From a virus (lineage: Duplodnaviria > Caudoviricetes): a stretch of DNA of 60,870 nt. The stretch spans positions 1 to 60,870 of IMG/VR virus record IMGVR_UViG_3300045119_000559, one strand, 5' to 3'. Both the position numbers and the translations under genes were made by a program. Of the stretch, positions 8,726 through 38,356 are shown piece by piece. The notes under the pieces were generated by a model. It did no database searches, was not told where the DNA came from, and was given only the letters and a program-made list of their open reading frames with translations. Each line of letters starts with the position of its first letter. Within the stretch, counting starts at the first letter, position 1.

Positions 8726-8997
8726 CAGTCGTCTGCGCTGGTGTTGTATTAGCGGTTGCCGTGCTTGGGCAACCGCTACACGTAGGGAACGACACCTGGG
8801 GAGCGTTCTGCTCCAGCGACTCTAGAGTCCTGCCCGATAATCTCAAGCTGATCTTCGACACTCCATACTACGCCGGAGTGTACTGCCGCACCAGTGATGA
8901 GATGACATTCTATGCATCTGGCGTAGTGCGGGAGATCGAACTACACCCGCGCAGCAAAGAAGTGCATTACTTCTGCGTATCGGGGCCAGGGGGCTGA
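8722..8997 (+). CDS. hypothetical protein with hydrophobic N-terminus
   Basis: ATGA overlap with the endolysin; last + strand gene before the convergence point. Confidence 0.5.
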   Translation: MTVVCAGVVLAVAVLGQPLHVGNDTWGAFCSSDSRVLPDNLKLIFDTPYYAGVYCRTSDEMTFYASGVVREIELHPRSKEVHYFCVSGPGG

Positions 8998-9212
8998 TCC
9001 GCCAGTTGCGACTTCAACGCATCTCGCTCTTTCGTCACCGCCGCAACTTGCGCCTGCAGCGATTGCACCAGCGCTTGCAACCTCGCCACGGCAAGGTCCT
9101 GCAGCGCAAGTTGCTGACCATAGCCGGAGATGAGGCGCTCCTCTGGCGACTGTTGCGCTAGCGCTGGCGTCAGCACCAGGGCCAGCACCAGTGCAATTGC
9201 AATTCTATTCAT
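8967..9212 (-). CDS. small exported coiled-coil protein
   Basis: Signal peptide MNRIAIALVLALVLTPALA|QQ followed by a heptad-like helix. Confidence 0.65.
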   Translation of the reverse strand: MNRIAIALVLALVLTPALAQQSPEERLISGYGQQLALQDLAVARLQALVQSLQAQVAAVTKERDALKSQLADQPPGPDTQK

Positions 9213-9217
9213 CGCCT

Positions 9218-10483
9218 TTACCCCCCATTCCGTGCTATGCAGGTATAGTTGACCTTGTTGCTGCTCGTTGCGGTCTGCGTTATCGTTATTGCTGCGGTGC
9301 TAACCGTATAGTGCTGCGTTGCGAGCGGATCGCCCTGCCACGTCACGGTACAGAACGGTGCGGCATTGTATGCCCCGTACGTCCCCGGAGTGAACGAGAT
9401 CACACAGCCCGTCGGGGTGCCGGTGCCCATGGTCACTTCGCCGGCCGTGTCGCTCCCGGCGACTGCCGGGTTCGTGCCGCATGCTGTGAGCGTCGGCGGA
9501 ATAACGTGCGTAATCCAGTGCCCGCGCATCTCCACGGGCGTCTGCGCGGCGGTGAAGATGCATCGGCTGCTCGTCGATGCCGTCAGCGCCGGGCAGTTGT
9601 AGCAATTGTAATTGGCGACCGTCGCGCCGCCGCTGAGCGACACGTCCTGGCAATTCGCGAAGACCAATTGCGTCACAGCGCCTGCGGTGAGCGCCGGTGA
9701 GAAGTTCGCAAATCCCATCACCGCCATGGTGCCAGCGCCACTCCATGATATGAATGACTGGTAGCTGTAGCAGTGATTGGGATTGATAGCACCAGAGGTG
9801 CCAGTGCAGATCGTCTGGTCATCGTACGATGCGTGGCCGAGGCCGCTCGCGGTGTAGTTGATCGTGTCGGATACGCTGAAGTCGTGCGTATTGCCGTTCG
9901 TCGACAGCACCCGGCATGTCCAAATCTGCGAGCCGCCGGAGCGATCCGTGGTGCACCCATCGCCGGCGACGAGGCGGGTAACATTGAGGGGATTGAGCGT
10001 CGGCGGCCCGATGCCAATCTGCCAGTTGGTGCCATCGGAGACGATTTGGTACGATTGGTTGGTCGTGACGACGAGGTTCGACGCTCCGTTGATGGTACTC
10101 ACCTGCGGGGTGATTGTCACAGCCCCGACGCCGAGGTTGCGCATGAAGAAGTTGAATGTACTAAGTGCGCCGTTTGCCTGAGGCAGCGTTACAGCGATAG
10201 CCCCGGCATTGTTGTAGAGCACAAGCTGTCCATAGTCCCCGACGCCGATGGTATCAGTGACGCCAGTAACGTTGCGAATGCCCTCGTACTGCTGGTAGGA
10301 GTTCACAAGGGTCGTCATGAATGCTCGGACAGCGCTCGGTGTGATCGCCCCTACGGTCTGATCAGGGAACGTGGTGGCGATATTCGTCGCCATGGTGGAC
10401 TTCGACACCTGAGCGGCGCAGGGCGCCGCTGCCAGCACCCATGCCGCAACGGCCGCGATAATTGCCCTTGCTCTACTGCGCAT
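9218..10483 (-). CDS. tail fibre/appendage-like protein with Sec signal peptide
   Basis: MRSRARAIIAAVAAWVLAAAPCAA|Q; GAITPSAVR, TIGVGDYGQLV..SDGTNW fibre-type repeats; T/S/G/C-rich. Confidence 0.65.
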   Translation of the reverse strand: MRSRARAIIAAVAAWVLAAAPCAAQVSKSTMATNIATTFPDQTVGAITPSAVRAFMTTLVNSYQQYEGIRNVTGVTDTIGVGDYGQLVLYNNAGAIAVTLPQANGALSTFNFFMRNLGVGAVTITPQVSTINGASNLVVTTNQSYQIVSDGTNWQIGIGPPTLNPLNVTRLVAGDGCTTDRSGGSQIWTCRVLSTNGNTHDFSVSDTINYTASGLGHASYDDQTICTGTSGAINPNHCYSYQSFISWSGAGTMAVMGFANFSPALTAGAVTQLVFANCQDVSLSGGATVANYNCYNCPALTASTSSRCIFTAAQTPVEMRGHWITHVIPPTLTACGTNPAVAGSDTAGEVTMGTGTPTGCVISFTPGTYGAYNAAPFCTVTWQGDPLATQHYTVSTAAITITQTATSSNKVNYTCIARNGG

Positions 10484-11963
10484 TGACTTTGTCCTTAAAG
10501 CCCGTGATCCACAACGCGCCCGCTGCGCCGCTCGTGCAGGCCTGCAACGTGACGGCTTCGAGTTTCATCCAATCCCGGAGGATAGCCGCTGCGCCGGTGC
10601 CGATGGCGATGGGCGGCGGGTTCGTCGTGGTGAGATTGCCATAGTTCGCATTTGGCGCAATCATCGTCAGCACCGACGCTCCGCCATTGTAGTCGTTTTG
10701 CGCCGAGATGTGCACATCGGTGCCAGTCGGCGGCACCCACACCGTACTGCCCGGTGCGGTGCCCTGCACTGTCTCGGCGGCCCATGCAACGGCCCCGGCG
10801 CTGCAGTTCGACCCGACTGTGCCGTTGAACACCGGACGCATTGTGGCGTTGTTCGTGACGCCTGCGTTCACCCACTCGGTCGTCGCGCCTGTTTGCAGCG
10901 TGCGGTAGAAGTTCCCGCTGCCATCGACCGCCATGGTGCCCAGGCGGCACTTGTACGTGTACCCGCTGGGCATCGTCGGCGCGGTCGCGCTCAGCGACCC
11001 GAGGCTCGCCCCCTGCGCCCCGTTGTCAATGATCCAGATGTATATCCAAGCGCTCGTACCGGGGGCTTCGCCGTCCATGCCGTTCGCAGCGGCCGTGGCG
11101 GTGCCCGTCGTAATGTTGAGCGTATAGTTGGCGCTGGTACGCGAGACGGTCTGCGAGGACGGGTTGATTGCGGTGGTTTGGTCAGCCGTAATGACAGCCT
11201 GGCTATTGGGCGTCCCGCTGCTGTTGGTGATCTTCAGCCCGATGGCGCCGCAGAGCGTCTGTGCTGTGGTCGGATTACTTTGGTTCACGAGGTTCAAGAG
11301 ATGGAAGTTCGCCTGCGAGGCGCTGTACACCACGCTCACCACGTTGCTCGGGCTCGCTGCGACGATCTCGCCGCCCTGTAGCGCCACGGCACCAGTAGCG
11401 GTGTCCTTCACAATCGCGACAGGCACACCCGTACCGCTCGGCGTGAGCGTCGTGGCACCAGTATTGGTGAATATGGGAATGAACTGAATGATCGAGCCAT
11501 CGGTGGCATTGAAGCCAGCATCGACCACGGTGATGGCATTGGGAGTCCCGCCGGCCGTACCGGCCCAAAACACCGAGTTCGACGCGCTCGTGTCGCACGT
11601 CGTCTGGTCGTACAACTGCACGCTCGATGCATCGAAGACTACCTGGCGATAGCACCCCGTGCCGTAGATGACCGCCATGCCGTTCGAGTCGAGGGTGATG
11701 GGGCAAGTATTCGGCGCACTTTGCGCCGAGTCCTTCCACGTTGTCTTGCAGCTACTCGTGGCGGGCGAGTACATGAACACCGTGCCATTCGCTAGCGGCA
11801 CGCCGTTGCCGTTGATAAACTGCTGCTCGCCGTTGGGCAGCAAGGTCGCGGCGGGCGAGTGGGCGCAGGTGTACAGCGCCGCTGCGATGGCGATGACCGC
11901 TATGGGCCACCATCGCCACGACGAACGTGGCCTTCGGCCCTGCCACCGCTTACTGCCTCGCAT
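10473..11963 (-). CDS. tailspike/tail fibre with P22-tailspike-like head-binding N-domain preceded by a signal peptide
   Basis: QQFINGNGVPLANGTVFMY...TTWKDS...NTCPITLDSNG.A.IYG.G.YRQVV.D head-binding-type motif follows a basic n-region and hydrophobic WWPIAVIAIAAALY..SPA|A. Confidence 0.7.
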   Translation of the reverse strand: MRGSKRWQGRRPRSSWRWWPIAVIAIAAALYTCAHSPAATLLPNGEQQFINGNGVPLANGTVFMYSPATSSCKTTWKDSAQSAPNTCPITLDSNGMAVIYGTGCYRQVVFDASSVQLYDQTTCDTSASNSVFWAGTAGGTPNAITVVDAGFNATDGSIIQFIPIFTNTGATTLTPSGTGVPVAIVKDTATGAVALQGGEIVAASPSNVVSVVYSASQANFHLLNLVNQSNPTTAQTLCGAIGLKITNSSGTPNSQAVITADQTTAINPSSQTVSRTSANYTLNITTGTATAAANGMDGEAPGTSAWIYIWIIDNGAQGASLGSLSATAPTMPSGYTYKCRLGTMAVDGSGNFYRTLQTGATTEWVNAGVTNNATMRPVFNGTVGSNCSAGAVAWAAETVQGTAPGSTVWVPPTGTDVHISAQNDYNGGASVLTMIAPNANYGNLTTTNPPPIAIGTGAAAILRDWMKLEAVTLQACTSGAAGALWITGFKDKVNAQ

Positions 11964-15332: not shown

Positions 15333-15345
15333 ATGCAGTGGGCTC

Positions 15346-17374: not shown

Positions 17375-18889
17375 CTAGCCTGCCTGCCCCTGGCGCGTTT
17401 TCATCGCCGGCGTGGAGTCGAGCCAGGCACCCTGCAGCGCCGTCGCCACCGGGGAGGCCCAAAACACCTCCAGCACCGCATCGCGCGAAAGCCCCATGTT
17501 GCGCCACTGCGGCTGTACGAGGGTATTGCCCGTGCCGCCAAGGGTCTGCCCGACGGGCTGGCCATACGATTTGCCCCGGTCCAAGGACACCCGCAGGTAG
17601 ACTTCGTCGAGTGAGAGCACCCCCGGAGGGCCGAAGCCAGGGCTGAAGCCCAAGGACCACGGCGAACCACCGGTGGCGAACACCGTGCCGCACTCCATGT
17701 TGAGCCGTACTGCGCCGATGGCGAATTGGTTGCCGTCAGCGACAATGTGGCGGAACCCCCTTCGCCGTACGATCGGAGCCCCTGCATCGGTGTAGTTGTC
17801 CAAGTCAAGCGTGTAGAGTTGCCCATTTGCGTAGTCCCCGCACACGATGCTGCCATAGGCGTTGGCGATGCAATTCATCCGGTGCCGATGCTCCACGCCA
17901 TTCACATCCAGCCACGAGCGCTGGTGCCATGCGAAGTCCTCCGTAATGTCGCATGCGAGCGTCACATCGGAGCTTGGAAACGTGAGCACATAGAACGTAT
18001 GATCTTGCTGCTGATATGTCATCCCGATGGCATCATCGACTCGCGGCAACTTCCTCAGCAGATCGCTCACGAACCTGTCGCTGATGCGCTTCGCCGTGTA
18101 CCCCGCGCCCATATACACCGTACGATTACCGGCAATGTCGGTGCCGAGCCAGAACACTACGAGGTCCCCGCTCTTTGCAATGCTGTACGGTGCGATGCAC
18201 CCGTGCTCGATGTATATCCCAGGCGATATGGCGAACGGAAACGCGGCGCCGCCAGCATTGTACCAGACCTCCGTCCCCTGCTGATTACCGAAGAGCCACA
18301 GCTCGCGATGCATCACGATGAGGCCCGCCAGGGCATCGGGGTAGCCAGACTTTGCCGCGAGGTACGTCCCGTCGAAAGCGACTTGGTTGCTGAGCGAGGA
18401 GTAGAAGTTCCGCGTACCGGGCTGGTTGAACAGCAGGAACGTATCGAGGAAGCCCGCGTGCGTGCCGCCGAGAAAGTTCGGGTCGCCTATTTGCGCCACG
18501 GCATTCGTCGCAAGGTCGATGGTGTAGCCCTGCGGAGAGCCATCCACGATGACAGCATTTTGCCCATTATCGGCGAACTTTACAGGCGTCTGCGCGGGTG
18601 CAGTGAGCGGGCCGCCAATCGGCGTGGCGACCCAGTTCGCGTCGATGTAGTAGACGTTTTGGTTCAGCACTCCGTAGAGTTTGCGATTTGTCGCGGTGTA
18701 CAGCCCGCGCCATGTGCCAGCTTCCGGCACTGCACCCACGGCCGTCAGGCCGGGCGTCGGATACAGCGTATATGGGTCCGGTGCATCTGGCTCCCTGTTC
18801 CGCTCCGGGTAGAGGTTCGTGCAGCGCTGAGTGTCGGCGATAGCACTGCGCGCTACGCGATATCCACCGATAAGGGGAAGCTGCGCCAT
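17375..18889 (-). CDS. packaged DNA stabilisation / tail hub protein, P22 gp10-like
   Basis: QRCTNLYPE..LYPTPGL, FADNG, FLDTFLLFN, ELWLFG..TEVWYN.G...FPF, HGCIAPYS, SLDRGKSYG..WRNMG.SRD.V.EV. Confidence 0.85.
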   Translation of the reverse strand: MAQLPLIGGYRVARSAIADTQRCTNLYPERNREPDAPDPYTLYPTPGLTAVGAVPEAGTWRGLYTATNRKLYGVLNQNVYYIDANWVATPIGGPLTAPAQTPVKFADNGQNAVIVDGSPQGYTIDLATNAVAQIGDPNFLGGTHAGFLDTFLLFNQPGTRNFYSSLSNQVAFDGTYLAAKSGYPDALAGLIVMHRELWLFGNQQGTEVWYNAGGAAFPFAISPGIYIEHGCIAPYSIAKSGDLVVFWLGTDIAGNRTVYMGAGYTAKRISDRFVSDLLRKLPRVDDAIGMTYQQQDHTFYVLTFPSSDVTLACDITEDFAWHQRSWLDVNGVEHRHRMNCIANAYGSIVCGDYANGQLYTLDLDNYTDAGAPIVRRRGFRHIVADGNQFAIGAVRLNMECGTVFATGGSPWSLGFSPGFGPPGVLSLDEVYLRVSLDRGKSYGQPVGQTLGGTGNTLVQPQWRNMGLSRDAVLEVFWASPVATALQGAWLDSTPAMKTRQGQAG

Positions 18890-18901: not shown

Positions 18902-18976
18902 CTATGTGTTACGCCAATAGCCCCAAGTAACATACATCGCGTTCGCAGCGAGCACTACGGCGAGGACTGTCATCAT
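18902..18976 (-). CDS. 24-aa hydrophobic peptide
   Basis: MMTVLAVVLAANAMYVTWGYWRNT; ATGA overlap with the upstream stop. Confidence 0.4.
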   Translation of the reverse strand: MMTVLAVVLAANAMYVTWGYWRNT

Positions 18977-21234
18977 TGCAGCGGGCCAAGGGTCGGTGTC
19001 GTCTGCGGCACGGCTTTCCCGGCGAAGTCGAACCACACCGGCGCGGCCACGCCAACGCTCTTGTAGTTCGAAAGCCCCACGGCGTAATCGCTGTAGAGCG
19101 AATAACCGCCGCTGCCGTTGCTCCACATCGGGTTGACGGTGGCGCCACCGCCCGACACTTGATCCGAATTACCAGCCTTCACCGGCACCGATGAAGAACC
19201 CGAGTCGGTCACAACTGGTGCACTCGTCGCCTGCACACAGAATTGCAAGTTGTTCTTAAAGAAGCTCGTTCCCGGAACGTATTGCTCCTCGAAATGGAAC
19301 ATCCCGCTGCCAGAAGTGGTGATGTTGTTCGTGTTGCAATTGTAGGCGTTGAAGTAAGCCCATATATTCTGCGGCTGCGGATGAAACGGAGTATCCATGT
19401 CCCATATCAGTGCGTATCCCGCCACGGTATTGCCAGCCGCACGGAGGATACCATTCACTATGTTGTTACGCCAAGTGACGTTGCTCGCTTCTGCTGTGTT
19501 GATGCACCCATGCGAAGATGTGATGCCCATCCAGCAAGCATTGCTTTCAACAAGTATGTCTTGAATACCGTAATCCTGCGGGCTGCTTTGCGGCTCGTTG
19601 ACGATCAGCGGGTTGCCGCCGCCGCCTGTTTCACCGTTTGCCCAAAGGACGTTGTGGTGAATGTTTGCGAATTTGTCATATATAACAGGCCCACCGGCCT
19701 GCGGGCTCGTATCGCCACGAAGATCTATTCCGGCCCTGCCGGGGCAAGGTCTGCCGTATATATTCCAGCCAACCTCGGCCTCATTCCATGTTTGAAGCCG
19801 CGTCATGCTTTGTGACATACTGTCGGCCATCTCAAAGACGGACCCAAGAACTGATAGCCTTGTCACGCCTCGAAAGAATACGACCTCAAGACCGCACTTT
19901 GTTTGATCTCCAGTGGTCGAGCCAGACCCATGCCAAATCACGCTGTTGATGTAGACTTCATCGACAACCGCCGAACTGTTAGTCGGCGTGCTGCTGCCGA
20001 GGTAGGAGCCAGAATTCGTGCAAGTTACATTGAACGTCAAGAATCTTTTGCTATTCTGTGGCAGGTTGAAGCAGGCGTTGTTATCGCCCACCGCATCAAC
20101 CTGCACGTCATGCACAGATAGATTGCTGCTACCGGCGCCCCCTAGTCCGCCAATGATAACATTGGCGCTGGATGCCACGGTGCTAGTAACTATGGCCTTC
20201 GACTGGATGATAGGCTGCGCCCCGGTATCAAAACTTCCAATCTGGCAGCTGCTGCATTGAACCAGCACGCCACCAACGTTCATCGTCCCGCCCGTGATGG
20301 TCGCTGCGCCAACGTTCGTCGGAGTCACGTAAGTGACAGTCGAACCACTCACAGATGCAGAGGCAAAGTTTCCCTCCAGCGACGCGAAGGCGCCTGTTCC
20401 GGTAAGGCCGCTTATGGCGAGTGTATCCCCAACCTGCATACTCTGCGCGGGTGCTGCTAGCGTCAAAGTAACAGTGCGCGTCCCTGTGTTGTAAGTGCCA
20501 GACGAAATTGTCTGAGCCGCGCCGGTATCGAGCGACTCCGTCGCGTGCAATAGCACACGATGCGAGCCACTAGTGGCAGTCAGGTAAGTGTTGGCAATAG
20601 CTGCAACAACAATGCCGGCAGACTTCGGATCATTGTTGCTAGCACCGCCGGGGCAGTTCGTAAAGGCTGCCCCGATGCACACGGTGCAGCCGATCGCAGG
20701 AGAGTTCGCGGTGCAATTGCCGCCGCTCCACGTCCCGCCATAGATATCGTTCGGGTTATTGACCGTCACCGTCACAGCAGCGGATTGAACCGAACCGTAA
20801 GGCCCGGTCATCGTGGTGACGATGCTATACACGCCTGCTGTGCGGTAGACGTGCCCGACCTCTGGCCCGATGCCGATGTTCTTGCTGGTGAGCGATGCCG
20901 GCAAGCCCACCATGAAGCCGCAATACGTTGTCTGCGGAGTTCCCGGCACAGTGCAGGGCGTCAGGACCGAATTGCTGGAGCCATAGCCATCCGTCCAATT
21001 GCCGTAGCCCGGATCGACACCAGTAGCGTCGAAGTTCGTGCTATAATATCGCTCGTGGTACGGCCAGAACGTCGAGGCGTCGGTGGATTGATCCAGGCGC
21101 ACGAACACCGGGCACGGTGCGGTGCAAGACGACACCGACACATTTGGCACCGGCGTCGGCGATGAGACCTGAAAGCCCTGCGCCTGCGCGGCGGCAGAGC
21201 AGATCGCGAGGGCCGCAGCGAGAAGCCAACGCAT
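18973..21234 (-). CDS. large exported beta-helix (tailspike/depolymerase-like) protein with PKD/Ig-like N-region
   Basis: Signal MRWLLAAALAICSAAAQA|Q; HVYRTAGVYSIVTT PKD-like motif; Asn-ladder repeats (IHHNV, VESNA, WRNNI, FKNNL); about 18 Cys in the mature part. Confidence 0.65.
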   Translation of the reverse strand: MRWLLAAALAICSAAAQAQGFQVSSPTPVPNVSVSSCTAPCPVFVRLDQSTDASTFWPYHERYYSTNFDATGVDPGYGNWTDGYGSSNSVLTPCTVPGTPQTTYCGFMVGLPASLTSKNIGIGPEVGHVYRTAGVYSIVTTMTGPYGSVQSAAVTVTVNNPNDIYGGTWSGGNCTANSPAIGCTVCIGAAFTNCPGGASNNDPKSAGIVVAAIANTYLTATSGSHRVLLHATESLDTGAAQTISSGTYNTGTRTVTLTLAAPAQSMQVGDTLAISGLTGTGAFASLEGNFASASVSGSTVTYVTPTNVGAATITGGTMNVGGVLVQCSSCQIGSFDTGAQPIIQSKAIVTSTVASSANVIIGGLGGAGSSNLSVHDVQVDAVGDNNACFNLPQNSKRFLTFNVTCTNSGSYLGSSTPTNSSAVVDEVYINSVIWHGSGSTTGDQTKCGLEVVFFRGVTRLSVLGSVFEMADSMSQSMTRLQTWNEAEVGWNIYGRPCPGRAGIDLRGDTSPQAGGPVIYDKFANIHHNVLWANGETGGGGNPLIVNEPQSSPQDYGIQDILVESNACWMGITSSHGCINTAEASNVTWRNNIVNGILRAAGNTVAGYALIWDMDTPFHPQPQNIWAYFNAYNCNTNNITTSGSGMFHFEEQYVPGTSFFKNNLQFCVQATSAPVVTDSGSSSVPVKAGNSDQVSGGGATVNPMWSNGSGGYSLYSDYAVGLSNYKSVGVAAPVWFDFAGKAVPQTTPTLGPLQ

Positions 21235-22841
21235 CAGAAGCTCTCAATAATCATGAACCCAGCGCCACCCTGCGCACCTGCGCCAGCGGTTTGCCCGGCA
21301 ATGGCGGTGCCACCGCCGCCACCGCCGCCACCGGCAGTTCCAGCACTGCCATTGCCCGCTACCGTGGTGCTACCGCCGCCGCCAGCACCGCCACAGCCAG
21401 AGTGGTAGTTAAAGTCCGGGTTAACTGCCGTGCCACCATTGGTGCTGGTCGCACCGCCCGTGGGCGGGGCTAAGCAGCCGAGCGACTTGCCGCCCATGCC
21501 AGTCGCGGCCGTGACGGCCGCACCGCCGTTCGTGCCACCGCCGCTGGCGCCCCCTGGCGCTCCCGTGGGGGTGAAACCGCCCGTCCTCGCAATGCCAGCG
21601 GCCGACGAGCCACCGCCGCCGGCACTGCACGACAGGCCGTCCGAGCCAACCGCACCGCTGCCGCCCCCGCCGATGCTTCCGCATCCAACTTGGCCCGCCG
21701 TGGTGGCGTTCGCGCCAAGCGCGAACGGCGAACCTCCCTGCCCGCCGACCGACGCGGCGCCACCTTGGCCCACACCCCCACCGCCGCCGCCGAAGAAGGT
21801 AATCAAGGCGCCAAAGGTGCTCGATGTCCCCTGCGTGCCGCCTGCGCCAGCCGCCCCGCCATTCGCCGCATTGCCAATGGTAATGGTCTGTGAGACCCCC
21901 GCATCAGCTGCCTTGAGCCATACATCGTGGCAATCGCCCCCGCCGCCCCCGGCGCCACCACTCGCAGTGCTATTGGCAATGCCGCCGCCGCCCCCACCAC
22001 CCTGCCCACATCCAAAGATGTGGACAAGCGTAACGCTCGCCGACCGCGTCCAGGTGCCATTGCCTGTGAAGACCTGCACGTCCACCGCGCAGGTTCCGGT
22101 TGATGTAATCACGCCGCCTGATGGACACGTTACAGACGTTACTGGGTTCGCCGCACAGCCAGTCCCGACGCCATTCAGCGCAGCACAGTTCAGCGTGGCG
22201 TAGGTGCCATCGCCACGGAAGAACGTAGTGGTAGTGTTCGGGAATGCTGGCAGCGCCCCTGGCAGGGCCGCCGTCGCGGCATTGATCAGCGCCGTCAGCG
22301 CGGTGTTGGTAATCCCGTTGAACCCGCCAGAGCCATTGTTGGTCTGCACTTGGCCGTTCGACCCGCCCGGTGCGGCGCCAACGCCGCAGGCGATATTCCA
22401 GTTCGTCCCGTCGAACTCAATGTCTGCGGATTGGTTCTGCGCAACGGAGGTACACCCGGCGTTGATCGCCCCGACGCCCGCTGCGAGGGTCCACGTCCCA
22501 GCACCCTTGTTGATGAACCTGAAGTATGTATTCGCTGCGAGGTTCTGCAGCGTGAGCGTCGCAGCACCGGCAGAATTGCCAATGACCTGCTGCCCGCACC
22601 ACGCAGCGGCGTCCTGCTGGCTCACTGTGATGGTAGCGGCGGTGGCCAGTGTAATTGCCACTGTGACCACCCCGCTTGCGGGGCCGCTGGAGGGGCAGCT
22701 GGTCGAGATCGACGTAACGCCCGCGCCACCGCCTCCGCTTGCAGTGGTCGTGGTAATCGTCTCGGCATCGGCAACGGCGAGCCAGGCGAATAGCAGCGCT
22801 ATCGCAATACTCCCGACGCCCCACACCGCTTTGCGCATCAC
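21234..22841 (-). CDS. glycine-rich tail fibre-like protein with signal peptide
   Basis: Signal ...IAIALLFAWLAVADA|E; PGGSNGQVQ.N..GGF.G; TTFFRGDGT; QVFTGNGTWT + GGGGGGG Gly-rich domain ending GAGFMIIESF. Confidence 0.7.
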   Translation of the reverse strand: MMRKAVWGVGSIAIALLFAWLAVADAETITTTTASGGGGAGVTSISTSCPSSGPASGVVTVAITLATAATITVSQQDAAAWCGQQVIGNSAGAATLTLQNLAANTYFRFINKGAGTWTLAAGVGAINAGCTSVAQNQSADIEFDGTNWNIACGVGAAPGGSNGQVQTNNGSGGFNGITNTALTALINAATAALPGALPAFPNTTTTFFRGDGTYATLNCAALNGVGTGCAANPVTSVTCPSGGVITSTGTCAVDVQVFTGNGTWTRSASVTLVHIFGCGQGGGGGGGIANSTASGGAGGGGGDCHDVWLKAADAGVSQTITIGNAANGGAAGAGGTQGTSSTFGALITFFGGGGGGVGQGGAASVGGQGGSPFALGANATTAGQVGCGSIGGGGSGAVGSDGLSCSAGGGGSSAAGIARTGGFTPTGAPGGASGGGTNGGAAVTAATGMGGKSLGCLAPPTGGATSTNGGTAVNPDFNYHSGCGGAGGGGSTTVAGNGSAGTAGGGGGGGGTAIAGQTAGAGAQGGAGFMIIESF

Positions 22842-23311
22842 TGCACCTCCCCGGCGAACGTGCAGTCGCTAGTCACGGTCTTGGTGAATGGGCCGGTAGT
22901 GGAGCAGACGAGTGTGATGCCGGCGAGGAACCGAGGGAACGGCCCCGGAGCCCATGTAACGCCAATGGTGTTATTCGCCGGGATTTGGTACGAGCGCGCG
23001 ACGCACGGGCGGGTGCTCTGCGCATTGGTACAGCCGGTCACGGCTCCGTCGCTCGGCACCGTTGCGGAGTCAAAAAGCAATATCCAGCGCGCAGCGGCAT
23101 TGGTGTTGTTGGCGCTGAAGCCGGCGAGCGTGCCCGCAGTGGCCTTCAAGATACGCGAGCCCTCCACGGCGCTCGCCATGCCGAGCGGAACGATGAGCGC
23201 GGCGCAGCCGGCATTGTTCACCTGGCTCAGGCATGACGCTACAGGCGCCTGCGCCAAGGCGGGCGGCGCAAAGAGCGCCAGCAACAGCGCAATAGTGCCA
23301 AGTACCTTCAT
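22838..23311 (-). CDS. small exported virion-associated protein
   Basis: Signal MKVLGTIALLLALFAPPALA|Q; ILKATAGTL.G....N...RWILLFDSATVP.DG; 6 Cys. Confidence 0.65.
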   Translation of the reverse strand: MKVLGTIALLLALFAPPALAQAPVASCLSQVNNAGCAALIVPLGMASAVEGSRILKATAGTLAGFSANNTNAAARWILLFDSATVPSDGAVTGCTNAQSTRPCVARSYQIPANNTIGVTWAPGPFPRFLAGITLVCSTTGPFTKTVTSDCTFAGEVQ

Positions 23312-24424: not shown

Positions 24425-24898
24425 TCATGGCGCCTTTGGCACTTCGGCCACTGTGGCGACGACCTTCTCGCTTACAGTGGCGTTTGCCACTGCGGGCGTA
24501 GCTACAATGGCGCGGACCTCTGGCATCTGCGCCACCGCATTCACAAGGAGATTGCGCGAAGCGGGGTCTACCGCCGCATTCGCATCCTGCACGGACTTCG
24601 GCTGAGCCAGTGTGTCCGCCACGGATTTGATCTGCGCCGACGGGCTCGCGCTGGCAGCGCCCTTCAGCGCGCTGTAGATGGGTGCCACGGCGCCAATGAG
24701 CGCCACGATCCCCGTAACGACTTCCATAAATCCGTGCCATATCTGGTTCACGTCCGTGGCAATGTCGCTCGCTGCCTGCGGCGTGAGGCCAGAGATAAAG
24801 TGCATCGTAGCCAGCGTCGCGAGGATGGTTCCCCCTGTGTTAAGCGCATGCCGACCAGCCGAACTGATCTGGTCCCAATTCCACTTCAGTGGGTTCAT
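24425..24898 (-). CDS. two-TM membrane protein, putative holin
   Basis: WDQISSAGRHAL..GG.IL helix plus a second TM segment VVTGIVALIGAVAPIYSAL. Confidence 0.55.
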   Translation of the reverse strand: MNPLKWNWDQISSAGRHALNTGGTILATLATMHFISGLTPQAASDIATDVNQIWHGFMEVVTGIVALIGAVAPIYSALKGAASASPSAQIKSVADTLAQPKSVQDANAAVDPASRNLLVNAVAQMPEVRAIVATPAVANATVSEKVVATVAEVPKAP

Positions 24899-25604: not shown

Positions 25605-26333
25605 TTATCTCACTTGGTCACTGTACGGATTATAAATACCCGGCCGAGCGAGATCGGTAGGCATCTGCAGGGCTGCGATTTGCGTATTGGCCTTGCGCAT
25701 GATGTTCAGGGCATTCTTCGCGAGCCCGATGAAATCGGGCCTGGGCGGCAGGTCGTACCCCGCGCGCAGGCGCACGACGAGGTTCCAATGGATTGCGCTG
25801 AAGTACTCCTTCGGCAGCACCAGCGCGACGTTCATGGCATTCGCTGCGATGTCGCTCAGGATGGCCTTCACCGTGATGTGCAGCTCGTAGATGTTCGGCT
25901 GCGCTATGGGCCAAAAGTACACCCGGCCGAGGGGATAGTCGCTGTCGTAGAAGACATTCATCGGGAAGGACTGCAGCTGCTTCAGCGCGATGAGGTTGTA
26001 GTCCTCGCGGCTCTGCAGCACCCTGCATGGGTAGTCGATCTGGTTTGGGGTGCTCTGCACGAGCTGGCGGAAGAATGCAGCCTCCAGCCGGTCGGGCGCG
26101 TCGGGAGTGTTGATATCCCCGGCGGGGCCAACCGTGTAGCTCTGCGCCCCCGTCGAGACCACCGACAGGTCCTGCAGATGCCGCACGAACCACCTGTTGT
26201 GGTTCCACTCCCCGAGCATGTAGTTGAACCGTTGACGGCACAGCTCGATGTCCTGGCCAGTGGCCGCTTGGCCGGTGCCCACAACCCCCGCGTCGAACAA
26301 CGCGAGGGTAAAGAGATCGAGTGCTGTGGGCAC
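25605..26333 (-). CDS. head-tail adaptor, P22 gp4-like
   Basis: TALDL...AL.DAGV.G.GQ..TG.D.......N.ML.EW; LPKEY..AI.WNL.VRL...Y. Confidence 0.75.
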   Translation of the reverse strand: MPTALDLFTLALFDAGVVGTGQAATGQDIELCRQRFNYMLGEWNHNRWFVRHLQDLSVVSTGAQSYTVGPAGDINTPDAPDRLEAAFFRQLVQSTPNQIDYPCRVLQSREDYNLIALKQLQSFPMNVFYDSDYPLGRVYFWPIAQPNIYELHITVKAILSDIAANAMNVALVLPKEYFSAIHWNLVVRLRAGYDLPPRPDFIGLAKNALNIMRKANTQIAALQMPTDLARPGIYNPYSDQVR

Positions 26334-31427: not shown

Positions 31428-31429
31428 GT

Positions 31430-33772: not shown

Positions 33773-33775
33773 TTG

Positions 33776-35787: not shown

Positions 35788-36057
35788 CTAGTGCGTGGCG
35801 AGCCACCTCGCTACATTCGCCAAGTCAGGCGCGTACGGATCATTGCGTTGCGCAATTGCCACTGCTGCGCGCAACTCCATTACAGTCGTCGGCCTTTGCA
35901 TCAGTTCATACGCCCATACCGACGTTACTCGACGCTCGAACGGGAACAACAGCGCCGCGTCCATATAGTGATGCTGTGCAATATTCACCTGTGCCACGAT
36001 AAGCATACTCGCGTACAACGCACCCAGCCCGACACAGAGCACCAGCAGCGCTTGCAG
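35788..36057 (-). CDS. TM + TPR-like segment overlapping the O-antigen-ligase-like gene in the +1 frame
   Basis: LQALLVLCVGLGALYASMLIVAQ TM helix, then AALLFPF..AQRNDPYAPD TPR-like; start uncertain. Confidence 0.5.
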   Translation of the reverse strand: MQALLVLCVGLGALYASMLIVAQVNIAQHHYMDAALLFPFERRVTSVWAYELMQRPTTVMELRAAVAIAQRNDPYAPDLANVARWLATH

Positions 36058-37072
36058 CCAGGAATGCTGTTGCGGGTTCGTGGGCTGGGAAGCCCGCCAG
36101 CGCACATACGCCAAACGCCACGAGGCTTGCGCGCTCGCCGGCGCACGCGCCCGTGCCCCAACCACGCAGCAGGCGCCATCCGGCAGGAAGCAGCAGCAGC
36201 ACTCCCAATCCATATTCGGCGAGAGCCTCGATGAAGTCCGCATGCGCATGTTCAGGCCGCCACTCGAAGATCGGCAGCTGCGCGATGCGCGGATATTCGG
36301 CGGGCCAAGAGCCCGCACCGAAGCCGAACCACTCCAGATTGCGCACCGTGTACAGCACATAGTCGAAACGCTCGTGCAAATGCGGCGATTTCGCCAGCAG
36401 GGCAGCGGCGGCGACGGTCGCCAGTGCAATTCCCCACATCCACCACAAGCGAGTGGAACGAACGCTCAGTGGTGCAAGAGCACATACCACGGCGATAGCA
36501 CTGGTGATATTGCCCACTACCAATTCCACTCCGTCCGGCCGTGGCACGAGGAACCAGCACAGGAAGCACGGCACTACGGCTGCTGCGGCGATCCACTCGC
36601 GCCGGCCGTAGGCCCATGCGAACACCACTGCTGCAGTCCAGCCGAGCACGTTGCTGTTGACGAACAGCCCCGCTGGCATCGCACCCGGCCCAGCCTGGGC
36701 TACGCCGTCCCAGCCAAAGAGTTGCGCTAGCACTACGGCAGAGTTGACCGCCATGCCAGCCGCTGCACCGCGCCACAACCACCGCGTGTCGCCCTGCGTC
36801 GCTAGCGCGAAGCCCATCGCCACCAAGACGCATTGCCACACGGTGTTGACGGACTCCAGCGGCACAGGGGACCATGCGACGCTGAGCGCGGCATATGCGA
36901 GGAACGCAACGATGGCGCCGATGCCAGGCACTTTCGTCCATGGCATTGCCACTGCGATACATGGCACTATGGTTGCAAGGAGTATCCACTTCGGAGCCTC
37001 AGAGGGGTCGATCCACCCAGGTACGAACGCAGCGCACAGCAAAAACCCGAAGGCTGCTTGCGCTGCGTTCAC
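35906..37072 (-). CDS. O-antigen ligase / O-oligosaccharyltransferase-like (Wzy_C) polytopic membrane protein
   Basis: About 10 TM segments; GLFVNSN, ERF, FGFGAGSW, EHAHADFIEALAEYGLG, FPAHEP motifs. Confidence 0.8.
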   Translation of the reverse strand: MNAAQAAFGFLLCAAFVPGWIDPSEAPKWILLATIVPCIAVAMPWTKVPGIGAIVAFLAYAALSVAWSPVPLESVNTVWQCVLVAMGFALATQGDTRWLWRGAAAGMAVNSAVVLAQLFGWDGVAQAGPGAMPAGLFVNSNVLGWTAAVVFAWAYGRREWIAAAAVVPCFLCWFLVPRPDGVELVVGNITSAIAVVCALAPLSVRSTRLWWMWGIALATVAAAALLAKSPHLHERFDYVLYTVRNLEWFGFGAGSWPAEYPRIAQLPIFEWRPEHAHADFIEALAEYGLGVLLLLPAGWRLLRGWGTGACAGERASLVAFGVCALAGFPAHEPATAFLAASAAGALCRAGCVVREYAYRGTGEYCTASLYGRGAVVPVRASSNVGMGV

Positions 37073-37090
37073 GTCGCGCTCCGCGGGGGC

Positions 37091-38356
37091 CTAGAGGCCC
37101 GTCCAGGCGTTGATGACGCCACTGCCGCCCATCGACAGGATGTAGATGCTGCTGCCAGCGGCGGGGAAGCCCGCGGTGCTGGTGCACTCGATCGGTACGT
37201 TCACCTGCGTGGCGAGGAACGTCTGCAGGGTGCTGGTGCGCAGGGCAGTACAGGCGGTATTGCCGGTGCATGCAGTCGTGGTACATGACCCGAAGCCCGC
37301 CGTGTACGTCATCGTCGGGGTCTTATACATCTGCACAGGGAAGGGCAGAATGCCCTCCGCGAGCGATGTGGTGGAGGTGAAGCCCCCGGCGATCACCGCA
37401 CCGGCACCGGCGCCCTCGGAGAGCTTGTAGAAGTACTTCAGCGCTGCCGCGGCGTCCTTCTCCTTCGGCTGGACCTCGAACAGCGACGCCACGCCGCTGC
37501 GCTCCAGCTGCGCCCCGGTCCAGGCGAAGCCATCCGTGGCTCCGCTGCCGGCAGCCGTCGGGGTGAAGCAAATCTCGACACCGACCTCGGTCGCCGTGGC
37601 GGGAATCGTGACAGTGGTGCTATACCTCGCGAAGGTCGTGGAGACCGAAAGCGAGGTGTTGACCACCGTGGTGATGCCGGTCCAGGCGGGGGTGATGGCC
37701 GGCGAAGCCGTGGGCGTTGCATTGAGGCCTTCATCGGTGCCGGTGCCGCTGATGACGATCATGTTCACTACATTGCCGTTGTCGGCCGAAAGGCCGGCCA
37801 AGGCGGCAATGTATGCGCTGAACGTCACGACCTGCCCAGCGAGCTGGGTGGCATCGGGCGTGGGCACAGCCGACATGACACACACGGGTTGCGTCAGTGC
37901 GCCCGAGGTGCGGAACACCTTCATCACATTGGTGAAGCCCGCAGGCGGCGACGGCGACGAAGTCACGATGGCCGTACGGCCAGCGCCTACAGCGACATTG
38001 GCGATGCAGCCCCACCGATCGGCCGAAAGGCCCGTGGTGGCAATCGCCGCGTTCTGGGCACATGTGACCGTGCCAGTGCCGTTGGTATTGGTGATGTTGA
38101 GCGCGCCGTTGCCGAGGAAGTTCCTCGGGGTGCCCCAGGTGGCACCGATGGCACTCGATGGGATCGTCACGGTCTGCGGGAACGCCCCACCGGGGAGGAG
38201 GGTGTCGGCTGGTACGTTCTCATTGCCCGTGATATACGGGTAGCCGGGAGACGAGCCTGGCGTGGGGTAGCCGGGGAACTGCCCCGCCGCGTACGCGGCC
38301 GTTGCCGCCACCATCGCGAGCGCGCCGAGGGCGCCAAAAACCTTACGCCTGTGCAT
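37091..38356 (-). CDS. exported beta-sandwich (CBM-like) virion-associated protein with RR-containing signal
   Basis: MHRRKVFGALGALAMVAATAAYA|AG; RNFLGNGAL.I, ADRW, LAGQVVTFS, TTFARYS.T..IP, GAQLE...ASLFE, KYFY; RBS GGAG. Confidence 0.7.
   Translation of the reverse strand: MHRRKVFGALGALAMVAATAAYAAGQFPGYPTPGSSPGYPYITGNENVPADTLLPGGAFPQTVTIPSSAIGATWGTPRNFLGNGALNITNTNGTGTVTCAQNAAIATTGLSADRWGCIANVAVGAGRTAIVTSSPSPPAGFTNVMKVFRTSGALTQPVCVMSAVPTPDATQLAGQVVTFSAYIAALAGLSADNGNVVNMIVISGTGTDEGLNATPTASPAITPAWTGITTVVNTSLSVSTTFARYSTTVTIPATATEVGVEICFTPTAAGSGATDGFAWTGAQLERSGVASLFEVQPKEKDAAAALKYFYKLSEGAGAGAVIAGGFTSTTSLAEGILPFPVQMYKTPTMTYTAGFGSCTTTACTGNTACTALRTSTLQTFLATQVNVPIECTSTAGFPAAGSSIYILSMGGSGVINAWTGL

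What the first reader, a model, noticed from the sequence alone, without database searches (positions are those of the whole stretch)
8967..38356. All tail-appendage-like genes carry export signals: possible periplasmic maturation of virion parts
Seen: ORFs 8967-9212, 9218-10483, 10473-11963, 18973-21234, 21234-22841, 22838-23311 and 37091-38356 start with n-h-c signal peptides ending in AxA-type sites. All but the first are Cys-rich (about 18 Cys in the mature 18973 protein, often closely paired) and Ser/Thr/Gly-rich. The core virion proteins (portal, coat, gp4, gp10, ejection) lack signals. In 10473-11963 the signal sits directly before a P22-tailspike-like head-binding motif. Known: tailed phages assemble in the cytoplasm, disulfides form in the periplasm (Dsb), and P22 tailspikes attach spontaneously to finished heads. 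Inference: the appendages are exported, folded and disulfide-bonded in the periplasm, then added to particles at or after lysis. That would be an unusual assembly route.
Basis: partly seen in the sequence, partly recalled or inferred. Interest (0 to 1): 0.88.

Follow-up and report, generated by a model that had tools for sequence, protein, structure and literature searches.

The report
Phage tail fibres carrying export signals
In this 61-kb P22-like phage and its uncultured relatives, the tailspike and other fibre-like proteins begin with conserved secretion signals and carry paired cysteines, so the host-recognition parts are probably made in the periplasm, apart from the rest of the virus particle.

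Summary
All seven flagged ORFs start with n-h-c signal peptides at start codons backed by ribosome-binding sites or gene overlaps. The core virion proteins have none.

The strongest case is 10473-11963. Its mature part begins with a P22-type tailspike head-binding domain (Z 9.3-9.7 to the P22 and Sf6 domains). In 108 of its 120 best homologues a signal peptide with an AxA site sits directly before that domain. Tailspikes of isolated relatives (PAE2, P26218) start at the same motif with no signal and no cysteines there.

Cysteines covary as perfect pairs (105 both, 0 single, 9 neither). Mature cysteine counts are even in all seven Cys-bearing exported proteins here.

37091-38356 has a tail-fibre fold, and 110 of 150 family representatives carry a signal peptide. 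Related complete phages keep a fast-changing cassette of exported proteins upstream of the gp10-like hub gene.

Export and disulfide bonding are well supported. Attachment to particles after holin action is an inference. The main rival is exported non-virion glycan-binding proteins, as with Pantoea WceF. Six literature searches found no precedent for signal-bearing tailspikes in tailed phages.

The parts
10473..11963 (-). C: pre-tailspike/tail fibre of 496 aa. It consists of a signal peptide (aa 1-38), a P22-type head-binding domain (aa ~43-126), a fibre-shaft-like domain (131-230) and an Mtd-like distal domain (234-400+).
   Evidence: AF2 gives pLDDT 85. The top 6 VIA-align hits are tailspike head-binding domains, Z 8.2-9.7, and Foldseek agrees. 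108 of 120 homologues carry a signal peptide. SD-like motifs (the script's patterns include GGAGG) lie at -14 to -12 of the ATG.
11850..11963 (-). The signal-peptide coding part of C (38 codons). The predicted SPase I site lies just before the conserved LLPNG motif.
   Evidence: AF2 models aa 19-32 as a lone helix.
11586..11837 (-). The head-binding (particle-binding) domain of C, aa 43-126.
   Evidence: tblastn matches the N-termini of tailspikes of PAE2, P26218, MW202557 and others at 40-54% identity.
9218..10483 (-). B: exported Cys-rich (12 Cys) fibre-like protein. It overlaps the end of C by 11 nt.
   Evidence: Signal peptide in 9 of 9 homologues in related loci. phrog_15797 domain. Its nearest Atlas clusters are viral (a lead only).
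8967..9212 (-). A: small exported protein of 81 aa with no Cys and a heptad-like mature part. It is the last gene of the late operon, facing the endolysin gene.
   Evidence: No family match. The function (lysis accessory or periplasmic helper) is inferred only.
18973..21234 (-). J: exported 753-aa protein with 18 mature Cys, probably a PKD domain plus a right-handed beta-helix (depolymerase-like). It lies directly upstream of the gp10-like gene.
   Evidence: Atlas features and structure point to Beta_helix/PKD/NosD clusters, all scores under 0.9 (a lead only). Its one close homologue, P0124, also has a signal peptide.
21234..22841 (-). K: exported Gly-rich 535-aa protein with 14 mature Cys.
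   Evidence: Weak match to phrog_863 'tail fiber assembly', E 1.8e-6. The 10 closest homologues all begin with signal-like N-termini: 8 by heuristic and 2 by eye. The 8 scored ones have even Cys counts of 6-18.
22838..23311 (-). L: exported 157-aa protein with 6 mature Cys.
   Evidence: Both ORF hits carry a signal peptide, but they are the same IMG/VR contig seen through two loci (L003 and L006).
23308..23547 (-). M: 79-aa protein with one transmembrane segment and a charged C-terminus. It is a holin-type candidate (inferred).
   Evidence: No family match.
23571..24377 (-). N (short form, 268 aa): exported protein ending in an aromatic residue, with an outer-membrane beta-barrel-like look.
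   Evidence: Positional homologues with signal peptides occur in L003 and G001. The barrel fold was not tested.
24425..24898 (-). O: 157-aa protein with hydrophobic segments. It is a second holin-type candidate (inferred).
   Evidence: Only a weak NCBIfam match below the cut-off.
37091..38356 (-). Z: exported 421-aa protein with 8 mature Cys and a tail-fibre distal (CBM-like jelly-roll) fold. It lies upstream of the terminase block.
   Evidence: AF2 gives pLDDT 85.8 and pTM 0.79. BFVD hits to phage tail fibre proteins have E 5e-27 to 1e-13 and TM 0.5-0.7. PDB hits are CBM4/22/16 modules and the phi812 baseplate. 110 of 150 family representatives carry a signal peptide.
35906..37072 (-). Y: polytopic membrane protein of 388 aa, next to Z. 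Its role is unknown.
   Evidence: No family match. It is absent beside the Z homologue of G001.
17375..18889 (-). gp10-like tail hub (head closure Hc3), without a signal peptide. This is the presumed docking partner of C.
   Evidence: phrog_578, E 2.4e-86. 39 phage records match.
25605..26333 (-). gp4-like tail adaptor, without a signal peptide.
   Evidence: phrog_12985 and phrog_637 (Ad3).
8027..8725 (+). GH25 endolysin without a signal peptide or SAR segment. This implies holin-dependent release.
   Evidence: Pfam Glyco_hydro_25, E 4e-22. N-terminus read.

Best explanation
This phage divides virion morphogenesis between two compartments.

Head, portal, gp4/gp10 hub and ejection proteins are made and assembled in the cytoplasm in the usual way. 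The receptor-binding appendages are made as Sec preproteins. This is certain for C as a tailspike/fibre, probable for B and Z, and possible for J, K and L.

The preproteins cross the inner membrane unfolded. Signal peptidase I cuts them at an AxA site, which for C exposes the same N-terminus that ordinary tailspikes have. They then fold, oligomerise and acquire structural disulfides in the periplasm.

The endolysin has no export signal, so lysis must begin with holin holes in the inner membrane. At that moment, or in the lysate, the mature appendages meet tail-hub-bearing particles, and C docks by its P22-type head-binding domain. P22 tailspikes are known to do this spontaneously in vitro (established knowledge, recalled).

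Shown here: signal peptides, their conservation, the Cys-pair covariation, and the head-binding and tail-fibre folds. Inferred: actual export, disulfide formation, presence in virions, and the timing of attachment.
For: (1) C's signal peptide is conserved. 108 of 120 best homologues have one directly before the LLPNG motif, and most of the other 12 look like truncated gene calls. In 102 sequences an AxA-type site lies within 6 residues of the motif: position -1 is A in 90, G in 7 and S in 5; position -3 is A in 67 and V in 17; the median signal length is 25. In raw DNA of related loci the signal is present in all hits that include the N-domain, except one ORF cut by my start rule.

(2) The mature N-terminus of C is a tailspike head-binding domain. 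The top 6 of 48,161 chains by VIA-align are P22, Sf6, Pam1 and Pan3 head-binding domains, Z 8.2-9.7. Foldseek gives the same set at probability 1.00. The family profile's best PDB sequence hit is 7eeq 'Tailspike head-binding domain', at a weak E of 0.063.

(3) The closest isolated-phage relatives of that domain start at the motif right after Met. PAE2, P26218 and MW202557 (40-50% identity) have no signal there, and PAE2 (the one sequence read) has no Cys at the paired positions.

(4) Cysteines behave as disulfide pairs. One column pair shows 105 both, 0 single, 9 neither. A replacement pair shows 8 both, 0 single. One pair is invariant in 114 of 114. Mature Cys counts are even in 107 of 114. 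All seven Cys-bearing exported proteins of the window have even counts. Across 26 related loci, 52 of 63 strong-signal proteins with at least 2 Cys are even (p = 1.7e-7).

(5) C shows receptor-binding-protein modularity. The N-terminal and middle domains are kept in all 24 loci (42-76% identity), while the distal domain is replaced in 10 of 24.

(6) No conserved in-frame internal start lies near the mature N-terminus. 8 of 18 distinct sequences have none within -14 to +3.

(7) Controls behave as expected. Nine core virion families (gp7-like set aside) give 2 of 75 false signal calls (my sum of the counts), and the PAE2 late region gives 0 of 15.

(8) The pattern recurs. Related complete phages G001-G003 carry 1-4 exported, even-Cys proteins between gp4 and gp10, plus exported C- and B-like genes. 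In Acetobacter phage phiAX1, both genes between gp4 and gp10 begin with signal peptides.

(9) Z has a tail-fibre fold, and 110 of 150 family representatives carry a signal peptide.

(10) The endolysin has no signal.
Against: There is no direct evidence that any of these proteins is in a virion. No isolated phage in the 50,697-record collection holds a homologue of B, J or Z, or of C beyond its N-domain.

Pantoea WceF is an exported (Tat) non-virion enzyme with a P22-like head domain that it needs for stability. It appears among C's structural matches at Z 5.8. A head-binding fold therefore does not prove head binding.

J, K and L have no recognisable particle-binding domain and turn over completely between close relatives. 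That also fits accessory genes that play no part in the virion (morons). Z lies outside the tail gene block, beside a membrane-protein gene.

My signal-peptide caller is a home-made heuristic that flags 34 of 304 ORFs at its permissive threshold. SignalP was not available.

Non-signal ORFs also show a mild excess of even Cys counts (61%).

Joining parts only after the membrane is breached is a second-order reaction. It would be inefficient unless it happens inside the still-confined cell.
Confidence: 0.55

Rival explanations
1. The proteins are exported but are not virion parts. They act on the host envelope from the periplasm or cell surface during infection or lysogeny, as glycan-binding or glycan-cleaving enzymes. 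Possible roles are destroying receptors, blocking superinfection or easing release. This would resemble Pantoea WceF, whose head-like domain is only a folding and stability module. The particle would then adsorb by the hub, the needle or a protein not yet recognised.
For: WceF is Tat-exported, has a P22-like head domain and depends on it for solubility. J looks like a beta-helix/PKD depolymerase (a lead only). Z has a CBM-like fold. J, K and L lack any particle-binding domain and are replaced between close relatives. Phage PBR31 has a signal-bearing esterase that its authors read as a lysis helper.
Against: C sits at the tailspike position of a P22-like late operon, and no signal-less tail-fibre candidate was found among the late ORFs. 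Its head domain matches true tailspike domains (Z 9.3-9.7) far better than WceF's (Z 5.8). That domain is 40-54% identical to tailspike N-termini of phages sharing the same hub family. The N-domain stays conserved across 24 loci while the distal part is swapped, which is the signature of a protein that must keep fitting a particle. The signals are Sec-like, with no conserved twin arginine.
Confidence: 0.25
2. Each protein has two fates. Part of it is exported as a free enzyme or adhesin. Part stays in the cytoplasm, through slow export or an alternative start, and is built onto particles in the ordinary way.
For: In the window itself the first Leu codon of the mature motif is TTG, a possible start. 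Phages are known to make free and virion-bound forms of depolymerases (general knowledge, recalled).
Against: TTG at that Leu occurs in only 2 of 18 distinct sequences. 8 of 18 have no ATG, GTG or TTG within -14 to +3 of the motif. A cytoplasmic form could not make the covarying, parity-conserving disulfide pairs. The SD lies before the signal-peptide start.
Confidence: 0.1
3. The hydrophobic N-terminus is not an export signal. It is a membrane tether or pro-peptide that holds appendages at the cytoplasmic face of the inner membrane until assembly.
For: The gp7-like ejection protein also has a hydrophobic N-terminus that my heuristic flags (6 of 14 family members). So hydrophobic N-termini occur in proteins of this module that are not exported.
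Against: The C, B, K and Z families have the full n-h-c layout, with A at -1 in 90 of 102 and A or V at -3 in 84 of 102. This fits signal peptidase I, whose active site is periplasmic (established knowledge). Even Cys counts and pair covariation point to an oxidising compartment. The gp7-like N-termini lack a charged n-region and have no Cys.
Confidence: 0.04
4. The signal peptides are artefacts of wrong start codons or chance hydrophobic stretches in GC-rich DNA.
For: The window is about 62% GC, and the heuristic flags many shadow ORFs weakly (34 of 304).
Against: 7 of the 8 top-scoring ORFs are the flagged genes. The signal is conserved in hundreds of diverged homologues. SD motifs or stop-start overlaps sit at these starts. 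No alternative start lies between the signal and the conserved domain.
Confidence: 0.01

Closest known systems
P22 gp9 and Sf6 gp14 tailspikes (head-binding domain; PDB 1lkt, 2vnl, 8eb7, 8tvr, 7sg7)
   Same: C shares the N-terminal head-binding fold (Z 9.3-9.7, 79-94 residues aligned). Its gene follows the ejection-protein genes of a P22-like module with gp4- and gp10-like hub proteins.
   Different: C is preceded by a conserved cleavable signal peptide and carries covarying Cys pairs. Its distal part is fibre-shaft plus Mtd-like rather than a beta-helix endoglycosidase. Sequence identity to the solved domains is only 14-16%.
Tailspikes of Pseudomonas phage PAE2, Rhodoferax phage P26218 and Manatee Spring podovirus MW202557
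   Same: These are the closest sequence relatives of C's N-domain among isolated or deposited phages (40-50% identity over about 80-90 aa). The same phages also hold the closest gp10-like hubs.
   Different: Their ORFs start at the conserved motif directly after Met, with no signal peptide, and the PAE2 sequence has no Cys at the paired positions. The PAE2 late region has 0 of 15 strong signal-peptide ORFs.
Pantoea stewartii WceF (PDB 6tgf; PMC7949094, passages read)
   Same: It is an exported trimeric tailspike-like protein with a P22-like N-terminal head domain. It matches C's N-domain at Z 5.8.
   Different: WceF is a chromosomal gene of an exopolysaccharide cluster, uses a Tat signal and is not part of a virus. 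C and its kin use Sec-like signals and sit in phage late operons next to hub and ejection genes.
Bordetella phage BPP-1 Mtd (PDB 1yu0; Pfam PF21916 mtd_2nd)
   Same: C residues 234-400 align to Mtd at Z 6.9. Of 4 homologues scanned, P0021 scores 26.8 bits, above the 24.6-bit cut-off. P0012 and P0053 score below it, and P0070 has no match.
   Different: No reverse transcriptase was seen among the window ORFs scanned with Pfam, though not all ORFs were scanned. That Mtd has no signal peptide is recalled knowledge, not tested here.
Filamentous phage minor coat protein pIII (recalled knowledge, no call)
   Same: It is a virion receptor-binding protein made with a Sec signal and disulfide-bonded in the periplasm before joining the particle.
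   Different: Filamentous phages assemble by extrusion through the envelope without lysis. Here the particle is a tailed, DNA-packaging, lytic-type podovirus whose head forms in the cytoplasm.
Bdellovibrio bacteriovorus fibre proteins (PDB 8ond, 8ok3; PMC10769870, search listing and abstract only)
   Same: These are phage-fibre-like proteins used outside the cytoplasm. Their C-terminal domains match C residues 357-490 at Z 5.1-5.2.
   Different: They are cellular proteins of a predator, not encoded in a phage structural module.

Membership tests
P22-type tailspike / tail fibre with head-binding domain | N-terminal head-binding domain fold | tested here: met
   C aa 43-126 gives VIA-align Z 8.2-9.7 to the P22, Sf6, Pam1 and Pan3 domains, the top 6 of 48,161 chains. 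Foldseek probability is 1.00.
P22-type tailspike / tail fibre with head-binding domain | Encoded in a P22-like morphogenesis module with gp4- and gp10-like hub genes, downstream of the ejection genes | tested here: met
   PHROG matches for portal, coat, Ad3, Hc3 and the ejection protein, and the gene order.
P22-type tailspike / tail fibre with head-binding domain | Conserved particle-binding N-terminus with an exchangeable distal receptor-binding part | tested here: met
   The N-terminal and middle domains are kept in 24 of 24 loci. The distal domain is undetectable in 10 of 24.
P22-type tailspike / tail fibre with head-binding domain | Made in the cytoplasm, with the ORF starting at the head-binding domain (no signal peptide) | tested here: not met
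   A 38-aa signal peptide precedes the domain, and 108 of 120 homologues have one. Canonical relatives lack it.
P22-type tailspike / tail fibre with head-binding domain | Physically present on virions, bound to the gp4/gp10 hub | not testable with these tools
   This needs virion proteomics or cryo-EM.
Sec/SPase I (type I) signal peptides | n-h-c architecture with small residues at -1 and -3 | tested here: met
   Own heuristic. C family: position -1 is A in 90, G in 7 and S in 5 of 102; position -3 is A in 67 and V in 17 of 102. SignalP and DeepTMHMM were not available.
Sec/SPase I (type I) signal peptides | Conserved across homologues despite sequence divergence of the peptide itself | tested here: met
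   C 108 of 120, B 9 of 9, K closest 10 of 10 (2 by eye), Z 110 of 150.
Sec/SPase I (type I) signal peptides | Actual translocation and cleavage | not testable with these tools
   This needs reporter fusions or N-terminal sequencing.
WceF-like exported bacterial tailspike-like enzymes | Tat (twin-arginine) signal | tested here: not met
   The window's C has RR in a long basic n-region, but homologues have ordinary K/R n-regions without a conserved RR motif.
WceF-like exported bacterial tailspike-like enzymes | Chromosomal polysaccharide-biosynthesis context, not a virus | tested here: not met
   The window is a 60,870-base virus record. The genes lie in the late operon, and relatives are complete phage genomes, one with terminal repeats.
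WceF-like exported bacterial tailspike-like enzymes | Trimeric right-handed beta-helix catalytic domain | tested here: inconclusive
   C has none. J may have one (scores under 0.9), but no model of J was made.
Mtd / DGR-diversified tail fibres | Mtd-like distal domains | tested here: inconclusive
   Z 6.9 to 1yu0. PF21916 scores above its cut-off in 1 of 4 homologues scanned, and none was found in the window protein itself.
Mtd / DGR-diversified tail fibres | Reverse transcriptase and template repeat nearby | tested here: inconclusive
   No RT family appeared among the ORFs scanned. No repeat search was run and not all ORFs were scanned.

The most novel reading that the evidence does not exclude
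A whole clade of roughly 60-kb podoviruses of uncultured Alphaproteobacteria builds its particles in two compartments. Heads and tail hubs form in the cytoplasm. Every receptor-binding appendage is exported by Sec and oxidatively folded in the periplasm. Holin-triggered permeabilisation of the inner membrane then doubles as the final assembly step that brings the two halves together. Signal peptides also appear on unrelated fibre types (the Z family with 1,601 representative clusters, and a second N-terminal fibre motif in L033 and L037). This would make periplasmic maturation of tail fibres a widespread, overlooked route among environmental tailed phages.
Probability: 0.5. Interest if true: 0.92.

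Novelty: new variant of a known kind. Interest (0 to 1): 0.85.

Why it matters
Textbook assembly of tailed phages takes place wholly in the cytoplasm. Signal peptides in phage genomes are normally read as marks of lysis proteins, exclusion proteins or accessory cargo genes (morons).

Here a bona fide tailspike head-binding domain is systematically fused behind a cleavable export signal, and the rest of the protein has evolved paired cysteines. If the proteins are on the virion, three things follow:
- Holin action becomes an assembly checkpoint.
- Host Sec, signal peptidase and Dsb functions become phage dependency factors.
- Disulfide-stabilised receptor-binding proteins become an adaptation of soil phages.

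There is also a practical consequence. Annotation pipelines that discard signal-bearing ORFs as non-structural would miss the receptor-binding proteins of this clade. Even under the rival reading, a large family of phage-encoded, exported, tailspike-derived envelope-acting proteins would be new.

Tried and rejected
**Family scans.** Pfam, PHROGs and NCBIfam on the flagged proteins gave almost nothing. Pfam returned 0 families for 10 proteins. PHROGs returned three weak hits. NCBIfam returned nothing above its cut-offs.

**Searches against the phage collection.** tblastn of J, B and Z found no match.

**Searches for relatives.** The first genome-contig scan, with the gp10-like protein alone, found nothing. 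The second, with the C alignment, found only two MAG contigs, one Xanthobacteraceae and one uncultured Alphaproteobacteria. K had no match in five related complete phages. Z matched in 2 of 5, one of them only weakly.

**Complex prediction.** I submitted gp10-like 1-492, gp4-like and three copies of C 39-126, each with an alignment. The result was 'no answer', score 0.00 against a mark of 0.32. This is neither for nor against binding.

**Internal start.** I considered a cytoplasmic isoform from an internal start and rejected it as a conserved feature.

**Wrong starts.** I considered wrong start codons and rejected the idea.

**A as a spanin.** I considered whether A is a spanin. It has no lipobox and no partner gene was recognised, so the question is left open.

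**DGR on C.** No reverse transcriptase appeared among the scanned ORFs. I ran no repeat search.

**Literature.** Six searches for signal-bearing tailspikes or tail fibres, or for periplasmic assembly of tailed phages, returned no paper describing this. The library lacks most subscription journals, and supplements were closed, so a precedent could exist unseen. I saw the following:
- The phiAX1 paper (PMC8566455, passages only; found via the name search) reports no virion proteomics and saw only myovirus-like particles.
- PMC10975493 (passages) notes a signal peptide on an esterase of phage PBR31.
- PMC13001222 (passages) was irrelevant.
- PMC7949094 (passages) gave the WceF facts.

Full report
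**What the window is.** The window is a complete-length virus record of 60,870 bases at about 62% GC. The plus strand at 1-8,725 and from about 43,000 onward holds replication and nucleotide-metabolism genes: a ParB-methylase, dNMP kinase, UDG-like protein, family A DNA polymerase, DUF3987, UvrD-like helicase and PD-(D/E)XK nuclease. It also holds a GH25 endolysin at 8027-8725. The minus strand from 35,203 down to 8,967 is a P22-like morphogenesis operon (PHROG matches):
- large terminase, 33776-35203
- portal, 31430-33772
- scaffold, 28635-29639
- coat, 27258-28490
- gp4-like adaptor, 25605-26333
- gp10-like hub, 17375-18889
- gp7-like ejection protein, 15346-16134
- two further large Cys-free proteins at the gp20 and gp16 positions

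The nearest deposited phages by the hub protein are PAE2, P26218, phiAX1, PBR31 and Manatee Spring podoviruses, at 29-38% identity.

All seven flagged ORFs begin with a basic n-region, an uncharged hydrophobic core and an AxA-type site. I applied one fixed heuristic to all 304 six-frame ORFs of at least 80 aa. It flagged 34, so it is permissive. Only eight scored 5.3 or more, and seven of those are the flagged genes. SD-like motifs lie 6-14 nt upstream of the starts of A, B, C, K, L and Z, and the M-L-K-J genes overlap stop to start at exactly these codons. All are even. Thirteen core proteins hold 28 Cys in 5,169 residues, and the three ejection-type proteins hold none.

**The key protein is 10473-11963 (C).**
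- *Homologues.* A search of 5.8 billion proteins returned 275 homologues. Among the 120 best, 108 carry a signal peptide directly in front of a conserved LLPNG-type motif. Most of the other 12 look like truncated gene calls.
- *Cleavage site.* In 102 sequences an AxA-type site lies within six residues of the motif, three residues before it in 78. Position -1 is Ala in 90, and position -3 is Ala or Val in 84.
- *Raw DNA.* In 45 related IMG/VR loci the signal is present ahead of the motif in every hit that includes the N-domain, apart from one ORF lost to my start rule.
- *Internal starts.* No in-frame start codon is conserved near the mature N-terminus.

**The mature N-terminus of C is a tailspike head-binding domain.**
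- *Fold.* An AlphaFold2 model built on 46 sequences has mean pLDDT 85.
- *Foldseek.* Against the PDB, its best matches are the head-binding domains in the Pan3 and Pam1 cyanopodovirus tails and in P22 and Sf6.
- *VIA-align.* An independent all-against-all alignment puts six such domains at the top of 48,161 chains (Z 8.2-9.7, residues 43-126). It also shows a fibre-shaft-like middle domain (Pa193 tail fibre, Z 7.9) and an Mtd-like distal part (Z 6.9).
- *Sequence.* The same N-domain matches tailspike N-termini of the phages that share the hub family: PAE2, P26218, MW202557, Ralstonia P4282 and others, at 40-54% identity.
- *Contrast.* In those phages the ORF starts at the motif right after the initiator Met, with no signal; the PAE2 sequence also has no cysteine at the paired positions. 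Signal-peptidase cleavage of C would therefore recreate essentially the N-terminus that ordinary tailspikes have.

**Cysteines behave as disulfide pairs.**
- *C-family alignment (114 sequences).* One pair of columns is Cys-Cys in 105, single in 0 and absent in 9. In eight of those nine, a different pair appears together. A third pair is invariant.
- *C-family parity.* Mature Cys counts are even in 107 of 114.
- *Related loci.* Across 26 loci, 52 of 63 strong-signal proteins with at least two Cys have an even count (p = 1.7e-7). The figure is 90 of 148 for the remaining ORFs, a set that includes missed signals and spurious GC-rich ORFs.

**C evolves like a receptor-binding protein.** Its N-terminal and middle domains are kept in all 24 loci at 42-76% identity, as conserved as the hub itself. 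The distal domain is replaced beyond recognition in 10 of 24.

**The other exported proteins.**
- *B* overlaps the end of C. Its relatives in eight loci all carry signals (9 of 9 ORFs) and range up to 1,005 aa with 16 Cys.
- *K*'s ten closest homologues all begin with signal-like N-termini (8 by the heuristic, 2 by eye); the 8 scored ones have even Cys counts of 6-18. Its distant relatives, which share only Gly-rich or DUF2793-type parts, mostly lack a signal and have few Cys.
- *J* has one close homologue, also signal-bearing. Language-model neighbours suggest PKD plus beta-helix (a lead only).
- *Z* belongs to a very large family: 1,601 representative clusters at E up to 0.001, with 110 of the best 150 carrying signals and most exceptions being fragments. 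Its AlphaFold2 model (pLDDT 85.8, pTM 0.79) matches predicted phage tail-fibre proteins strongly (E 5e-27 to 1e-13, TM 0.5-0.7). In the PDB it matches carbohydrate-binding modules and a phi812 baseplate protein.
- *A* is a small Cys-free exported protein at the operon's end, and I do not regard it as an appendage.

**The pattern belongs to a clade.**
- *G001.* The closest complete relative has, between its gp4- and gp10-like genes, small membrane proteins, an OMP-like exported protein and four exported proteins of 146-546 aa with 2, 6, 4 and 8 Cys. BLAST found no similarity between these and J, K or L. It also has a signal-bearing Z homologue upstream of its terminase.
- *G002 and G003.* Each has an exported protein between gp4 and gp10, and exported C-, B- and further Cys-rich proteins after the ejection genes.
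- *phiAX1.* In this more distant, mitomycin-induced Acetobacter phage, both genes between gp4 and gp10 start with signal peptides. For gene 450, a glycanase-like protein, this holds only if the ORF is read from an upstream ATG that the deposited annotation skipped.
- *Controls.* Nine core families (gp7-like set aside) gave 2 of 75 false signal calls, summing the counts. The gp7-like family has an uncharged hydrophobic N-terminus that was flagged in 6 of 14. The PAE2 late region gave 0 of 15.

**Mechanism.** The endolysin has no signal or SAR segment, so lysis should start with holin holes. Two small membrane proteins in the cassette (23308-23547 and 24425-24898) are candidates, by inference only.

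The best-supported reading has four steps. The appendages are exported unfolded by Sec, processed, disulfide-bonded and oligomerised in the periplasm. Particles carrying the gp4/gp10 hub are finished in the cytoplasm. The two meet once the inner membrane is breached. C docks through its head-binding domain.

The signals, their conservation, the Cys pairing pattern and the folds are shown here. Export, oxidation, virion membership and timing are inferred.

**Main rival.** These could be exported non-virion glycan-binding or glycan-cleaving proteins. Pantoea WceF shows that a P22-like head domain can survive in such a protein, and it matches C at Z 5.8, against 9.3-9.7 for P22 and Sf6. Against the rival stand C's gene position, the lack of any signal-less fibre candidate among the late ORFs, the closeness of the N-domain to true tailspikes of hub-sharing phages, and the conserved-N, swapped-C pattern. 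For J, K and L the rival remains quite possible.

**Hosts and novelty.** Only two GTDB species-representative genomes hold a relative, a Xanthobacteraceae MAG and an uncultured alphaproteobacterial MAG, and no isolated phage does. This probably explains why six literature searches found no description of signal-bearing tailspikes or periplasmic maturation of tailed-phage parts. The library is incomplete and supplements were closed.

**Verdict.** I file C as a new variant of the P22-type tailspike/tail fibre. It meets the fold, context and modularity criteria, but it fails the implicit criterion of cytoplasmic synthesis. I rate the finding as highly interesting.

Noticed in passing
window 42100-42513 (-) and 56426-56944 (+): Two small ORFs of 137 and 172 aa share a twin-arginine-like N-terminus (RRG, then a hydrophobic stretch ending in APA, followed by IV+A). 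They scored 5.1 and 5.4 in the signal census. They may be Tat-exported paralogues in the early and replication regions. Pfam found nothing.
   Followed up: partly
window 23571-24377 (-): An exported 268-aa protein ending in Phe, with an outer-membrane-barrel-like look, sits inside the structural operon between the gp4- and gp10-like genes. Positional homologues with signal peptides occur in L003 (4769-5587) and G001 (29% identity). Its fold and role were not tested.
   Followed up: partly
L001 (phiAX1, LC644973) 12089-14014: The deposited CDS PhiAX1_450 ('cycloisomaltooligosaccharide glucanotransferase') starts at an internal ATG. The open frame extends 35 codons upstream to an ATG that gives a canonical signal peptide.
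   Followed up: yes
L002 (PAE2, OK041467) about 14864-16873 (+): The PAE2 tailspike ORF, whose N-domain is 50% identical to C, is not annotated on its own strand. The tblastn match lies under a feature annotated only as a hypothetical protein, and the plus-strand tailspike frame found is absent from the annotation table.
   Followed up: partly
L033 and L037 versus L029 and L030; protein P0138: A second, unrelated tail-fibre N-terminal motif (the 'PNTF.NGT..DA.Q' type) occurs both with a signal peptide (L033, L037, P0138) and without one (L029, L030). The signal-on-fibre trait is therefore not confined to the C family.
   Followed up: partly
L026 / L028: One related phage, seen through two near-identical contigs, carries two C-like paralogues in tandem, each with its own hydrophobic signal-like leader before the conserved motif.
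   Followed up: no
window 15346-16134 (-) and homologues: The gp7-like ejection protein has an uncharged Ala/Gly-rich hydrophobic N-terminus. The signal heuristic flagged it in 6 of 14 family members. It has no basic n-region and no Cys.
   Followed up: partly
window 35906-37072 (-): A 388-aa polytopic membrane protein with no family match lies directly downstream of Z. It is absent beside the Z homologue of G001, so it is probably accessory.
   Followed up: partly
window 7444-7566 (+): A 40-codon ORF with one hydrophobic segment and a lipobox-like LVAC three residues from its end lies upstream of the endolysin gene. It may be a small lysis-related membrane peptide or may not be a gene at all.
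   Followed up: no
window 9218-10483 and 21234-22841 (-): B and K appear to share a roughly 70-aa domain (the phrog_15797 region of B, ending in a 'DGTNW' motif). I saw this by eye in the translations and did not align it.
   Followed up: no
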